Of a stretch of DNA of 64,000 nucleotides, positions 3,898-59,889 are shown piece by piece. The first letter of the stretch is position 1. Every line of letters begins with the position of its first letter. The stretch comes from Eledone cirrhosa. Lineage: Eukaryota. The stretch is taken from contig OZ024750.1 in NCBI GenBank assembly GCA_964016885.1, positions 40,114,001 to 40,178,000 on the forward strand, given 5' to 3'. The position numbers were made by a program, and so were the translations under genes. The notes below the pieces were generated by a model. The model was not told the DNA's origin. It saw only the letters and a program-made list of their open reading frames with translations, and made no database searches.

Positions 3898-6167
3898 GGA
3901 AAAATTTGAACAGGGACAAAACAGAGGCAGTACAATAAATGTTTATTAATTTCACGCTCAGGAGAGTGGGGGGTAGGTGGGGGACGACGTTTCGGGCATA
4001 AGCCCTTCCTCAGGTGGGAAGTGTGTGGGAACAGAGTTCAAAAGGTGTGTAGGGGAGTGGTGGAGAGACATATAGCGAAAGGAAACGGTGCGAATGAAAA
4101 AATAACAAATAAAGATAAAAAATAAAAATAAAGCATGATCAAAATACAAGGAATGAGAAAATTTAAAAATAAAGGCATGATCAAAATAAACTGAAATTAA
4201 AAGGGGGGTAAACAGGTGGTGGAAGGGTGTGGGGTGAGTGGGGGTGGTGGCGGGTGGAGTGGGGAGAGGGAGACGGGGTGTCCGAGCGGGGAGGGCTGAA
4301 GGTGGTGTGTGTGTGTAGGTGTGCGTGTGTGTGTGTGTGTGTATGTGAAAGTAAGGGTTGGGGGAAGAACGGGGTTGCATGTTCAGGAAGAGGTGTGTGT
4401 GGGGGGTGTTTTTGTGGGTCGGAGTGTCTGTGCGTGTGTGGATAGGGGGTGGGGGGAGAGGAAACAGGAGGCTGAGGGTGTAAATATGTGGTGGGAAGCA
4501 CGTGTGTGTGGGGTTTAAGCGTGTAGTGGGTGTGGGTGGCGTATGGAGAAAAACATTTTTTGGGGGTGTGTGTGTGGGTGAGTTATATAGGTGATTACGT
4601 AAGAGGATGGTTGAAAAGTTGGTAAGTTCCAAGGATGTTTAGAGGATTGGTTGTAAGTCAATTTCTGCGTCTGGGTAATCCATGAAGCGGTGGTCGGAAG
4701 AGGAGAGATGTGGGGTGCGCGCGCAACAGGAAGTGGTCAGAAGTGGGAGTGCTGTGGTCTGTTGGTGCTGGGAGGTGGTCAGAAGGGCATAGCAGCAGTC
4801 GGTGGAATGGTAAGGGGGCGAGGATGGGTAGGTGTGAAAGTTGGAGTGAGGAGGGTGTGTGTGTGTGTGTGTGTGTGTGTATTAGTAGGGGTGTTAGTGG
4901 GATGAGTGAGTGTGGCGCGAGGGTGTGGGTGGAGCGGGGAGAGAAGGGTGTGTGTGGTTCTATGGAGGGAGTGTGGTGTACTGGTGTGTGTGTAGTTTGA
5001 TGAAGAGGTGTTAGTGGGTGTTAGTATACGGGAGGTGGGGAGGGGTTGAATGCAGGTGTGAGTGGGGTTAGTGGTGGTAGGGTGTGTAGAGTTGGTGGTG
5101 TACGAGGGTTTGTGGGTACGTGTGCGTGGGGTTGGGGGTGTTAGTGATGTTAGTTGCGTGTGGGGTGGGTGGTGTAAGTGGGTGCGTGTGTTCGTGTGCT
5201 TGGGGTTAGGGGGTGTTAGTGAGGTTAGTTGCGGGGTGGTGGGATGGAGGTGTGGGGGTGAGAGGTGTGAGGGTGAGGGTTAGTGGTGGTAGTAGGGTGT
5301 GTGTTTAGTGTGAGCGTGTGTATATATGTGCCGGTGGGTGTGTGCGTGTGATAAGGAGGGGGAGGAGGAGAAGAGGGGAGGGAAGGGATGTTAGTATGTT
5401 AGTTGGGGAAGGGTGGTCAGATGAGGGGTGGAGTGGAGGTGTTAGTATTGTTAGTGTGGGGTGGGCGGTGTAAAGGAGGGGTGTGTTAGTGGTGTTAGTG
5501 GGGGATAAGTGTGTGTGTGTGTGGGGGGGGGGGGTCGAACGCTAAAGGAATAAGGGTGGGGAGTTCAGGCCGGGGGGAGTGTGGGTCTGTAAGATGAAGA
5601 TAGTTCGTTGTTCGACCGTAAGGCGATGGGCGGGTGTTCCGTGGCACTGGAGTAGGCCACAGACTGTGAGATGGCGGGCGATGGGGGAACTGCCCCCGAG
5701 ACGAATATCCCGGAGGTGCTCCGTGACTCGGTCCGCCAGGCGACGTCCTGTCTGTCCGTTGGGACCCTGGAAGGTGGTGGTGTTGGTGATGTGGGGACAG
5801 GTGTTGCAGCGGGACCTAGAACAGGGAAAGGAACCGGGGGGGGACAGAGCGTGGGTTGGGGGTAGGGAGCTGTGGACGAGGAGGGTGCGGAGATTGCGTG
5901 CGCGTTTGAAGGAGGGGAGTGGTGGGGTTGGGAAGATGTGGGAGGTGGAGGGGTCGGACTGGAGGCGTCGGAAGAGGCGGCGGATGGTGCGGTGGAGGGG
6001 TAAGGTGGAGGGGTGGTAGGTGATGGGGAAGGGGAGACGGTGGGTGGGTGTGCGGTGGCGTGGGGTGAGGGTGGTGGAGCGGGGGATAGCACGGGCGCGG
6101 GTGAGAGCGGTGTAGACGAGAGAGGGGGGTAACCTCTGCGGATGAAATGGCTGACTAGGGAAAGGGC
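3890..6167 (-). mobile_element. Degenerate Penelope-like derivative: C-rich low-complexity body with 3' hammerhead-like motif
   Basis: Minus strand starts with a peptide [14 protein letters not shown] (like the PLE RT C-terminal F..xGYP motif). It ends with CTGAGGA-AGGGC-TTAT-GCCC-GAAAC-GTC (3985-4013), then AATAAA. The 3' end is duplicated at 3670-3750 and it is bounded by (TA)n. Confidence 0.45.
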
Positions 6168-16442: not shown

Positions 16443-16646
16443 GAATGGAGTCAGGCCGCCGACCACTGAGCTCCGGCCGTTTCGACAGCTAGGTCTGAAC
16501 TCAGCCATTGGGGTCCTGACTCTTTTCCTATTACCCATTCTACTACACAGTATCGAGTACTTTGGTACGTTATGGTCCAACTGGTTACTTACCACACTTC
16601 GATCTGGTCCGACTCTGGAATAAAAACCTCGTCGGACCTCTGTGGT

Positions 16647-16915
16647 AATAATTGTTTCTACTTTAGGCACAAGGCCAGCAATTACCCCAGTACATTACTG
16701 GTACTTTATTTTATCGACCCCGTAAGGATGAAAGGCAAAGTCAACCTCGGCAGGATTTGAACTCAGATCGTAAAGGGACGTAACTATGCTGGAAAGCATG
16801 GCGTCCGACCCTCTACCGACACTGCCAATCCACCAAATAATAATAGGCACTACGTTAGGCACAAGGCCAGCAAATACCCAGTGCATTACTGGTACTTTAT
16901 TTTATCGACCCCGTA
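16647..16915 (-). mobile_element. SINE family 1, full copy plus partial copy
   Basis: Reverse complement of 7941-8131. Confidence 0.85.
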
Positions 16916-17364
16916 ATAATGATAGAATGAATATACATGCCATATAAAAGATCTAACGTTTCGCGTTCCTAGTTTTCCAGTCTCATCCTGTGTGGTCAGT
17001 TTATGCTGTTTTGATTGGTGGTTTAGCTATGAGCAATGTTTTGGCATGTACGATAGGTGGAAAGGGGGGGGGGGGGTGAACGTAGTGACGAGGTAGTGGT
17101 GGGGAGCACTAGTTGATGTGAGTGGTGGGATAACTGGTCAACATCATCGGATGGTTCCGAAGACACAAGTTTTTTTTTTTTTTTTTAGAGTTTCCCTCTC
17201 TTAGAAAGGTGTTGTGACAACTGGGGGGGCTTTCACTCTCAGGTGGACTAAAACAAAAAAGTACTATTTGGATGGTCGTGGACTCTGCTGAGTTCCTCCG
17301 CCCTTTGCCGGGTCTTGTATTTCATCCCGCAGGGTGTCCAAATATATATATATGTGTGTGTGTG

Positions 17365-17452
<88 letters not shown>

Positions 17453-17879
17453 ATTATAATGGTCCTTGCCATTATAAGTTCAAATCCCGCCGAGGTTAAC
17501 TTTGCCTTTCATCCTACGGGGGTCGATAAAATAAAGTACCAGTAATGCACTGGGAATAATTTGCTGGCCTTGTGCCAAACGTTGAAACAATTATAATGGT
17601 CATATGATAATCAATTTGTTTGGGAAATAGTAATTTGAGCAGGTATGTGCTTTGATATCTTCCTCCCTACCTCACACACACACACACACACACATACACT
17701 CACACACACAGATACACACACACAGATACACACAGACACACAGACACATATTTGACAAGACATATCCAGTAGTTTAACAACGGCTAACTATAACAATCTA
17801 CGTATGAATCTATCTATATTCGGACATTAGAGGCCACAATCTAACTCTCTAATTTAGAGGAAATATATTTGATAGCCAG

Positions 17880-18005
<126 letters not shown>

Positions 18006-18127
18006 TTTTATAGAAGGAGCTTCTACAGGACTAGTACTGTTTCATTCAGATGAAATCTTCAGGAAGCTTCCTGATGATTTCATCTGAATGAAACAGTACT
18101 AGTCCTGTAGAAGCTCCTTCTATAAAA
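18006..18127. ncRNA. 122-bp palindrome encoding a complete type I hammerhead on each strand
   Basis: AGCTTC-CTGATGA-TTTCATCTGAAT-GAA-ACAG-TACTAGTC-CTGT-A-GAAGCT at 18065-18115 (+); mirror copy with CTGAAGA on the minus strand. Confidence 0.8.
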
Positions 18128-18202
18128 TAAAAAAAATTTTACTCTGCCTTGTATTGAGTACCTTACTTACTGTGGTTATCCCCGACTCAACCCGGGACCT
18201 AC

Positions 18203-18246
<44 letters not shown>

Positions 18247-57604: not shown

Positions 57605-57656
<52 letters not shown>

Positions 57657-57877
57657 AATTAAGTTAAAAATGTACATCCACATATGTATACTGAAATACT
57701 AGTATGCATATGAATACACACACGTATACATATGTAGATGTACCGAGTTTTTCACTGGTCACTTTACTGTGAGTGTCCAGCTATTCTGTATGTAAACACA
57801 CAGACAAACCGGTTTTTAGAGTCATACTGGTTTTTGAGGAAGCACCTTTCCTCTATTCTCCAGAAAGCCAGGCAAGG

Positions 57878-57922
57878 AATATTGAACTAGTTTCGATGTT
57901 GATACATCTCATCAGCAATATT
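57878..57922 (-). ncRNA. Minimal type I hammerhead ribozyme
   Basis: Reverse complement of the 58805-58849 motif, with one change in the stem II loop. Confidence 0.85.
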
Positions 57923-58804
57923 TACCTATCTTCCGGCCTCTCTAGAGAATCGTGAAAGCACATATCGTTATATGCTTTTTCTATGAAAATTAGTAGTGGG
58001 CAGACTAATTTGCATAGAGCGTGAGTACGTACCGGTTCAACGGAGACGATAAAAACAAATAACGAAACGAAATTAAATTTCGTTTCATTTGTAACTCACT
58101 TTTGTATGACTGACGCTTAAACAATTAAGTTAAAAATGTACATCCACATATGTATACTGAAATACTAGTATGCATATGAATACACACACGTATACATATG
58201 TAGATGTACCGAGTTTTTCACTGGTCACTTTACTGTGAGTGTCCAGCTATTCTGTATGTAAACACACAGACAAACCGGTTTTTAGAGTCATACTGGTTTT
58301 TGAGGAAACACCTTTCCTCTATTCTCCAGAAAGCCAGGCAAGGAATATTGAACTAGTTTCGATGTTGTTACTAGTTCAATATTCCTTGCCTTGCTTTCTG
58401 GAGAATAGAGGAAAGGTGTTTCCTCAAAAACCAGTATGACTCTAAAAACCGGTTTGTCTGTGTGTTTACATACAGAATAGCTGGACACTCACAGTAAAGT
58501 GACCAGTGAAAAACTCGGTACATCTACATATGTATACGTGTGTGTATTCATATGCATACTAGTATTTCAGTATACATATGTGGATGTACATTTTTAACTT
58601 AATTGTTTAAGCGTCAGTCATACAAAAGTGAGTTACAAATGAAACGAAATTTAATTTCGTTTCGTTATTTGTTTTTATCGTCTCCGTTGAACCGGTACGT
58701 ACTCACGCTCTATGCAAATTAGTCTGCCCACTACTAATTTTCATAGAAAAAGCATATAACGATATGTGCTTTCACGATTCTCTAGAGAGGCCGGAAGATA
58801 GGTA

Positions 58805-58849
58805 AATATTGCTGATGAGATGTAACAACATCGAAACTAGTTCAATATT
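58805..58849 (+). ncRNA. Minimal type I hammerhead ribozyme
   Basis: AATATTG-CTGATGA-GATGT-AACA-ACATC-GAA-ACTAGT-T-CAATATT: 7-bp stem I, canonical core, 5-bp stem II, palindromic stem III; predicted cut after 58842. Confidence 0.9.
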
Positions 58850-59270
58850 CCTTGCCTGGCTTTCTGGAGAATAGAGGAAAGGTGTTTCCTCAAAAACCAG
58901 TATGACTCTAAAAACCGGTTTGTCTGTGTGTTTACATACAGAATAACTGGACACTCACAGTAAAGTGACCAGTGAAAAACTCGGTACATCTACATATGTA
59001 TACGTGTGTGTATTCATATGCATACTAGTATTTCAGTATACATATGTGGATGTACATTTTTAACTTAATTGTTTAAGCGTCAGTCATACAAAAGTGAGTT
59101 ACAAATGAAACGAAATTTAATTTCGTTTCGTTATTTGTTTTTATCGTCTCCGTTGAACCGGTACGTACTCACGCTCTATGCAAATTAGTCTGCCCACTAC
59201 TAATTTTCATAGAAAAAGCATATAACGATATGTGCTTTCACGATTCTCTAGAGAGGCCGGAAGATAGGTA

Positions 59271-59315
59271 AATATTGCTGATGAGATGTAACAACATCGA
59301 AACTAGTTCAATATT
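59271..59315 (+). ncRNA. Minimal type I hammerhead ribozyme
   Basis: Identical motif 466 bp downstream of the 58805 copy. Confidence 0.9.
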
Positions 59316-59889
59316 CCTTGCCTGGCTTTCTGGAGAATAGAGGAAAGGTGCTTCCTCAAAAACCAGTATGACTCTAAAAACCGGTTTGTCTGTGTGTTTA
59401 CATACAGAATAGCTGGACACTCACAGTAAAGTGACCAGTGAAAAACTCGGTACATCTACATATGTATACGTGTGTGTATTCATATGCATACTAGTATTTC
59501 AGTATACATATGTGGATGTACATTTTTAACTTAATTGTTTAAGCGTCAGTCATACAAAAGTGAGTTACAAATGAAACGAAATTTAATTTCGTTTCGTTAT
59601 TTGTTTTTATATATATATATATATATATATATCCCTGCATTTATCTTTTCATATATCTTTCGGTTTACTTGACTGTATTTTACTATATTGTCTCTCACCC
59701 TATCAGCCTTTTATCCTACCATCTTTATAACTATATCTATATGTTTATCTTATTTTGTTTTTCATTATTTTATTTATTTTTTTTTTTTTTTCATATTCCG
59801 ATTTTATTTTATTCTATCTTATTATTTCTCATTTCCTATCCTTTTCCTCATGTTATTTTCCATGTTATTTTTCATGTCATTATCTCTAC

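What the first reader, a model, noticed from the sequence alone, without database searches (positions are those of the whole stretch)
18006..18127. Ambisense double hammerhead: loopless palindrome whose single mismatch is the free N7 core position
Seen: a 122-bp palindrome centred on AAG|CTT (18066/18067). Each strand reads AGCTTC-CTGANGA-stem II-GAA-ACAG..CTGT-A-GAAGCT, a complete HHR with a GUA triplet. The only asymmetry (18058/18075) gives CUGAUGA versus CUGAAGA, at N7, the one unconstrained core base. Inference: this is either two different functional templates joined head-to-head or a chance mutation. Either strand could self-cleave if the HHR fold competes with the long hairpin.
Basis: partly seen in the sequence, partly recalled or inferred. 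Interest (0 to 1): 0.75.

Follow-up and report, generated by a model that had tools for sequence, protein, structure and literature searches.

The report
Back-to-back Penelope retroelement stubs
This mirror-image stretch is one of many back-to-back stubs of a young Penelope-like jumping gene and its single mismatch is found in no other copy, so it is likely a chance mutation; the copies' shared start point likely marks where the element's RNA begins.

Summary
The 122-bp palindrome is real, but it is part of a ~220-bp insertion in (TA)n. Two 5'-truncated ends (pLTRs) of a young Penelope-like retroelement with Hydra-clade motifs are joined head to head through a 4-bp AGCT overlap; only the right arm has the 3' tail. 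The genome holds 2,480 exact copies of a 30-mer from the arm, and about 130-140 loci share this junction. The family reads CUGAAGA. The U at N7 occurs once (versus 1,750 A-type arms), and the same arm has a second change against the family, so the asymmetry is likely chance, not two templates. The hammerhead is plausible (core kept, one compensated stem I pair, U·U at 10.1/11.1), but the hairpin is predicted to beat it by ~73 kcal/mol. More useful: 1,013 of 1,750 arms end exactly at the first or second base of stem I, 29-30 nt below a TATA box, also in a sister subfamily without the AGCT palindrome. None of 100 tailed arms starts at the cleavage site. This fits two cDNAs running off the RNA's 5' end (inferred; no RNA data). 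The architecture is published, and this scan reported similar stubs in other genomes.

The parts
17988..18068 (-). Tail-less arm: pLTR stub from +1 (18068) through the hammerhead to TTCTAT and an expanded A-run (22 T on +), fused to (TA)n
   Evidence: 56 of 57 sampled mini-palindromes have exactly one tail
18065..18206 (+). Tailed arm: pLTR stub from +1 (18065) to the fixed family end CTACG|TAT
   Evidence: 99 of 100 tailed arms end at +138..+141; matches tandem copy L085
18065..18068 (.). Self-complementary AGCT shared by both arms (junction); about 130-140 loci have the same junction
   Evidence: 132 + 133 matches
18065..18115 (+). Type I hammerhead motif: stem I 18065-70/18110-15, core CUGAUGA 18071-77, U·U 18078/18089, stem II 18079-88, GAAA 18090-93, stem III 18093-108, predicted cleavage after 18109
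18018..18068 (-). Second hammerhead motif with the family-typical CUGAAGA (N7 at 18058); predicted cleavage after 18024
18075..18075 (+). N7 = T, the only such copy of this subfamily in the genome
   Evidence: (1 T, 1 C, 7 G matches) versus (1,750 A)
18137..18206 (+). 3' tail (~70 nt); in tandem parent copies it runs on into the 5' leader and the ORF (ATG at +184). It carries a second change against the family, at 18149
17916..17987 (.). (TA)n target microsatellite, left side
18204..18241 (.). (TA)n target microsatellite, right side; a target-site duplication cannot be read

Best explanation
The palindrome is two 5'-truncated, hammerhead-bearing ends of a Penelope-like retroelement sitting head to head in a (TA)n repeat, likely made when both cut target strands primed short cDNAs that ran off the 5' end of the element's RNA and were joined through AGCT, with the N7 mismatch likely a later point mutation. 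Shown: family membership, parent ORF, fixed 3' ends, one tail per insertion, sharp 5' edge at +1/+2, uniqueness of the T. Inferred: (1) the parent RNA starts at +1, the first base of stem I, from the pLTR's TATA promoter; (2) the RT starts at two internal sites (~+60-70 and ~+139), one per target strand, as shown in vitro for another PLE; (3) starting in the 5' copy of this region yields a 60-140-nt run-off cDNA, whereas starting in the 3' pLTR copy yields long cDNA; (4) the two ends anneal by microhomology or are trimmed and filled; (5) the template is uncleaved RNA. The stub has lost its promoter; a host read-through transcript is predicted to form a ~60-bp hairpin and not to cleave.
For: Family: 2,480 exact 30-mers, 1,563 exact tail 37-mers. 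Parent: tandem copies place TATA, HHR, tail and ORF in order. The ORF model (pLDDT 90) hits telomerase RT first (E 2e-8), and Hydra-clade motifs are present. 5' edge: 1,013 of 1,750 arms intact from +2 lose the parent base at -1 and 559 read through to -7. In 100 tailed arms, 29 end at -1..+2, 0 at -2..-17, 20 at +3..+9, 21 are scattered over +14..+83, 0 at the cleavage site +46, 1 at -18, and 29 read through. TATAAATA starts at -29 (subfamily A) and -30 (sister subfamily, with CCAAT at -84). The sister subfamily with AGAT instead of AGCT shows the same edge in 13 of 30 loci. Two cDNAs: in 15 of 57 mini-palindromes only the tail-less arm reaches +2, which fold-back copying of the tailed arm cannot give; junctions vary between loci. 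N7; private arm differences run at about 0.9% per site, about one expected per 61-bp arm pair.
Against: No transcript start was observed. The promoter is inferred from motif spacing only. A cap-derived extra G is not established: G precedes +1 in 30 of 100 listed arms versus T in 2, but partner-arm microhomology explains many of these. One locus (duplicated on C6, L111-L114) has the same rare N7 = G in both arms, and 2 shared versus 26 private differences were seen in 32 pairs; this fits one RNA template but also arm-to-arm copying or conversion. End calls are from simple extension alignments and are ambiguous by 1-3 nt where arms share microhomology; the samples come from the first part of contig C1 and include a few duplicated loci. 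The T at 18075 could also be an assembly error, since no reads of this individual were available.
Confidence: 0.75

Rival explanations
1. Same element and same stub, but the second arm is made by fold-back: the first cDNA's 3' end hairpins and copies itself back towards the target.
For: Both arms share a rare N7 = G at one locus. The frequent GGAAGCTCCTGA junction (6 loci) can be drawn as a 3-nt-loop hairpin.
Against: In 15 of 57 mini-palindromes the tail-less arm holds 5' sequence that the tailed arm lacks. In 2 of those 6 junctions the arm reaching +1 is the tail-less one.
Confidence: 0.12
2. The +1 edge is not a transcript start but an RT stop or joining hotspot caused by stem I, by the AGCT palindrome, or by a splice acceptor (CCCAG|) as in Drosophila Penelope.
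For: AGCT is self-complementary and is used as the overlap at about 130-140 loci. In D. virilis the intron ends at the 5' end of helix I (PMC4209133, results).
Against: The edge persists in the AGAT subfamily (13 of 30). A structural block is expected on the 3' side of a stem, and no peak lies at +46..+52. No shared upstream exon sequence precedes the truncated arms. TATA spacing fits a start at +1 in both subfamilies.
Confidence: 0.1
3. The palindrome is a functional ambisense double ribozyme built from two different templates, or a master palindromic element that moves as a unit.
For: N7 is the tolerated core position and both arms keep the core. The identical junction recurs at many loci.
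Against: The T variant is unique. A/G N7 asymmetries also occur at L117 and L119. Junctions are heterogeneous. The hammerhead fold is disfavoured by 72-74 kcal/mol in the palindrome. The stub lacks the TATA region.
Confidence: 0.02
4. Assembly artefact (inverted chimera).
For: No reads from this individual cover the locus. Palindromes next to microsatellites are error-prone (general knowledge).
Against: The arms differ in 3' end and in the tail in the family-typical way; the same architecture recurs in 59 of 71 short tailed arms with different flanks.
Confidence: 0.01

Closest known systems
EN+ Penelope-like element insertions with inverted 5'-truncated pLTR and one-sided tail (PMC8557442 passages; Pen2a_Av in PMC3846280, parts 1-3 of 5)
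   Same: Inverted pLTR adjoining the 5' end, overlap at the junction, tail on one side only, microsatellite target, TATA/Inr-like motif in the pLTR.
   Different: Here both arms are minimal (60-140 nt) with no ORF, the tail is ~70 nt rather than 30-40 bp, and such stubs are the majority outcome (59 of 100 tailed arms).
Hydra-clade PLEs (Craig et al. 2021, PMC8557442, Hydra section)
   Same: DKT, CxCX5C linker, CxxC..E and CxH motifs, C-terminal EN, hammerhead, (TA)n targeting, ~700-aa ORF.
   Different: RWR instead of RWK in this copy; the one unit measured (L062) is about 5.5 kb, not <3 kb; no tree was built.
Opposite-strand dual min-HHRs in Schistosoma PLEs (PMC4209133, results)
   Same: Two hammerheads on opposite strands from truncated PLE ends.
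   Different: Those lie ~100-700 bp apart; here they overlap by 4 bp. This motif has a 4-bp stem III with an 8-nt palindromic loop, a 3-bp stem II and U10.1·U11.1.
Poseidon PAc in vitro (Frangieh et al. 2024, PMC11167929, main text)
   Same: Two internal RT start sites defining the tail, both target strands extended, AT-rich target, uncleaved RNA as the dominant template, protein-assisted hammerhead.
   Different: Different clade. A run-off at the transcript start and head-to-head joining of two cDNAs were not described in the text read.
Minus-strand strong-stop DNA of LTR retroelements (recalled)
   Same: Priming near the RNA 5' end gives a short run-off cDNA of a terminal repeat.
   Different: The primer here would be target DNA, not tRNA; no strand transfer is shown. 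Analogy only.

Membership tests
Type I hammerhead ribozyme | Core CUGANGA, GAAA, NUH triplet | tested here: met
   Both arms; core invariant apart from N7 in 15 of 16 aligned variants, L101 being the exception
Type I hammerhead ribozyme | Three stems with comparative support | tested here: met
   97.6% of cells paired; one clear compensated pair in stem I (C-G to A-U, 5 of 16 rows, probably one event); pair 1 is unpaired in 4 of 16; stems II and III are nearly invariant and so uninformative
Type I hammerhead ribozyme | G10.1-C11.1 pair | tested here: not met
   U·U instead; reported as a natural variant and the best-tolerated mismatch (PMC3088659 passage)
Type I hammerhead ribozyme | Match to an Rfam hammerhead model at gathering score | tested here: not met
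   0 matches in the window
Type I hammerhead ribozyme | Self-cleavage | not testable with these tools
   Predicted only: the HHR fold lies 4-5 kcal/mol above the free ensemble for a half, 7-8 in longer contexts, 72-74 in the palindrome
EN+ Penelope-like element | Single ORF with telomerase-like RT | tested here: met
   YRDD in 59 of 59 homologs; top fold hit TERT 3du5, E 2e-8; Pfam and PDB sequence searches blank for the query
EN+ Penelope-like element | C-terminal GIY-YIG endonuclease | tested here: met
   VY..YIG motif; weak PF01541 in 3 of 60 aligned members; Atlas neighbours carry PF01541. Weak support, not a direct Pfam hit
EN+ Penelope-like element | pLTRs in tandem or inverted arrangement with HHR and one-sided tail | tested here: met
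Hydra clade of PLEs | DKT, CxCX5C, CxxC/CxH around conserved E and N | tested here: met
   Query has all; homologs 55, 57, 59 and 59 of 59
Hydra clade of PLEs | RWK motif | tested here: inconclusive
   Query RWR; RWK in 42 of 59 and RW[KR] in 59 of 59 homologs
Hydra clade of PLEs | (TA)n insertion preference | tested here: met
   99 of 100 tailed arms end at +138..+141, nearly all running into TA repeats
Hydra clade of PLEs | Generally short (<3 kb) | tested here: not met
   About 5.5 kb in L062, the only copy measured, with a microsatellite-rich 3' region and an internal inverted repeat; the paper gives this as typical, not diagnostic
Hydra clade of PLEs | Placement in the RT phylogeny; absence of CCHH | not tested
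   No reference PLE set at hand; CCHH looks absent by eye only
Animal non-LTR retrozyme | Head-to-tail tandem units each with an HHR, no ORF-bearing parent | tested here: not met
   The arms are the pLTR of an ORF-bearing element; no tandem unit at this locus
MITE / foldback DNA transposon | Fixed unit with symmetric terminal inverted repeats | tested here: not met
   Asymmetric ends and variable centres

The most novel reading that the evidence does not exclude
Most insertions of this family are paired strong-stop cDNAs. The element's mRNA begins exactly at hammerhead stem I, both target strands prime near that 5' end, and the genome keeps hundreds of fossils that map the transcript start to the base. 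The ribozyme would then be a 5'-leader cutter (removing the first 45 nt with the cap) whose cleaved product is not used as template.
Probability: 0.5. Interest if true: 0.55.

Novelty: new member of a known kind. Interest (0 to 1): 0.3.

Why it matters
The finding as raised (a designed ambisense ribozyme with a meaningful N7 asymmetry) is explained as an ordinary retroelement stub. What remains of value is family-level. How PLEs form inverted pLTRs and what their hammerheads do are stated open questions (PMC8557442 discussion passages). This young family gives three sharp coordinates (5' edge +1/+2, ends ~+60-70 and ~+139) and a nearly intact ORF, enough to design a direct test of double priming and run-off.

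Tried and rejected
Rfam scan: no hit. Pfam and PDB sequence searches of the parent ORF: blank. My first label, Neptune (recalled from the Cys linker), was dropped after reading the Hydra diagnostics. Sequencing runs: no RNA holder listed, which says nothing on expression. Laying two raw DNA runs and two contig sets of related organisms showed family relatives with variation in loop II, loop III and one stem I base, but no piece spanning this locus, so it neither confirms nor refutes this copy or its T. A read-based check of the +1 edge was not obtained. Lünse et al. (PMC5785218) is not held and was seen only as cited in PMC6765202. One search had an off-by-one constraint and is superseded. The cleavage-site end reported by the scan for another genome was tested and not seen here (0 of 100 at +46, one at +44). 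Cap-G test inconclusive. Splice-acceptor reading rejected for lack of a shared upstream exon. Paper searches found no description of a transcript-start edge in PLE mini-palindromes; the library is incomplete, and supplements (e.g. Craig et al. files S1/S2 with Hydra consensus sequences and HHRs) were not read and may hold this family.

Full report
Observation. The sequence at 18006-18127 is a palindrome centred on 18066/18067 with one unpaired position, 18058/18075; z about -21 against shuffles. Both strands carry a type I hammerhead layout from +1 (18065 on +, 18068 on -) to +51, and the mismatch is N7. U10.1·U11.1 is a reported natural variant (PMC3088659, passages). Rfam finds nothing in the window.

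It is a repeat. A search with one half returned 71 matches from 40 scored of 413 candidates, most as adjacent opposite-strand pairs. An exact 30-mer occurs 2,480 times and an exact tail 37-mer 1,563 times. The exact A/A version of this junction gives 132 + 133 matches, about 130-140 loci. The right arm runs on for ~70 nt to CTACG|TAT and then (TA)n; the left arm stops after TTCTAT and an A-run. Of 100 tailed arms, 99 end at +138..+141, and 59 of the 71 short ones have an inverted arm next to them. Of 57 mini-palindromes, 56 have one tail only.

The parent. Longer copies are flanked by inverted arms and contain ORF pieces. L062 holds a 754-codon open frame. Tandem copies show the order pLTR with TATAAATA, hammerhead, tail, leader, ATG at +184. 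Pfam and PDB sequence searches were blank. There are 441 homologs at E <= 1e-20; with 59 of the 120 listed as alignment the model has pLDDT 90 and its best structural match is telomerase RT. The motifs match those given for the Hydra clade (PMC8557442, Hydra section): DKT, CxCX5C, CxxC..E, CxH and (TA)n targeting are met, RWK reads RWR, the <3 kb length is not met in the one copy measured, and no tree was built.

The N7 mismatch. With the subfamily's flanks, non-A N7 gives 9 matches in the genome: one T (this locus), one C and seven G, against 1,750 with A. In 32 arm pairs (of 33 loci given; one gave no pair) there were 26 private differences, 4 of them junction effects in one locus, and 2 shared, over 40 sites per arm; 19 of 32 pairs had at least one. 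That is about 0.9% per site, or about one mismatch per 61-bp pair, with a 1 in 61 chance of falling on N7. L117 and L119 also differ between arms at N7. The right arm has a second change at 18149. Older subfamilies do use CUGAUGA, so N7 is free between lineages, but this T sits in an otherwise pure young-subfamily arm. A chance substitution (or an assembly error) is the simple reading.

Is the ribozyme real? Across 16 hand-picked variants from the subfamilies the core is kept in 15, loop II varies freely, and one stem I pair is compensated (C-G to A-U in 5 rows, probably one event); the first stem I pair is broken in 4 rows, and stems II and III hardly vary. This supports a selected hammerhead in the parent lineages but does not show activity. 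Predicted cost of the hammerhead fold: 4-5 kcal/mol for a half, 7-8 in the natural 5' context, 72-74 in the palindrome (a nearest-neighbour model without tertiary contacts). On either strand the antisense arm comes first, so kinetics also favour the hairpin (inference). PLE hammerheads are reported as weak, dimer- or protein-assisted (PMC4209133 parts 1-2; PMC11167929 parts 1-2).

How it forms. Arms end sharply at the first base of stem I. Genome-wide, 1,013 of 1,750 arms intact from +2 lack the parent's base at -1, and 559 read through to -7. In 100 hammerhead-anchored arms, 37 end at -1..+2, 23 at +3..+12, 1 at -8, and 39 reach -15 or beyond. In 100 tail-anchored arms, 29 end at -1..+2, none at -2..-17, 20 at +3..+9, 21 over +14..+83, none at the cleavage site +46, 1 at -18, and 29 read through. 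A sister subfamily of 11,993 matches has AGAT, not AGCT, and shows the same edge in 13 of 30 loci, with 16 read-throughs and one end at -6; so the edge is positional and AGCT only supplies a handy overlap. TATAAATA begins at -29 or -30, with CCAAT at -84 in the sister, the spacing of a polymerase II start at +1 (established knowledge; not measured). In 15 of 57 mini-palindromes only the tail-less arm reaches +2, in 10 only the tailed arm, in 16 both and in 16 neither; the first class needs two cDNAs. With the two internal start sites and two-strand extension shown for PAc (PMC11167929), the likeliest path is two target-primed cDNAs running off the RNA 5' end and joined end to end. Against or unresolved: no RNA evidence of any kind was obtained; one duplicated locus has a rare G in both arms; the cap-G signal is confounded; end calls are uncertain by a few bases; the samples come from one contig.

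Comparison with what is known. Inverted truncated pLTRs, one-sided tails and microsatellite targets are published PLE features (PMC8557442 passages; PMC3846280 parts 1-3), as are opposite-strand hammerhead pairs (PMC4209133) and TATA/Inr motifs in pLTRs (PMC3846280); D. virilis Penelope has a TATA-less internal promoter (PMC2377424 passages). Searches found no paper on a transcript-start edge in such stubs, within an incomplete library and without supplements. Also seen: 10.64898/2026.07.22.740005 (part 1 of 5), PMC6765202 and PMC13282606 (passages). Earlier notes of this scan (unchecked AI notes) describe the same kind of stub in many other genomes, including a start just before the ribozyme; I had reached this reading before opening them.

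Verdict. Observation confirmed; the special meaning of the N7 mismatch is not supported; the object is a new member of a known kind. Interest 0.3, carried by the family-level map of ends.

Noticed in passing
window 57650-59610: Array of ~466-bp units, each with a canonical dimer-type hammerhead (57891-57915 minus; 58812 and 59278 plus), arranged as an inverted plus tandem block in (TA)n with the turn at ~58368 inside a hammerhead: retrozyme-like.
   Followed up: partly
window 3990-4013 (-): Another hammerhead-like core with a bulged A and a 4-bp stem II next to (TA)n; probably a different PLE family.
   Followed up: no
window from ~18590 onward: 74-bp minisatellite, at least 19 copies up to 20000.
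   Followed up: no
L111-L114 (G000 C6 ~90.73 Mb): Duplicated mini-palindrome with the rare N7 = G in both arms: one template or arm-to-arm conversion.
   Followed up: partly
arms listed: Of 33 arms that end at +2, 18 have T in place of the +1 A, though T is rare before +1 (2 of 67). Unexplained; possibly misincorporation at a modified first base (speculative).
   Followed up: no
window 18105-18124 and relatives: A hairpin covering the cleavage site and the 3' strand of stem I is predicted in subfamily A and ends where the tail-less arm ends; it could be an off-switch or an RT start signal.
   Followed up: partly
window 16646-16925 and 17464-17554: Copies of a common short interspersed repeat in both orientations.
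   Followed up: no
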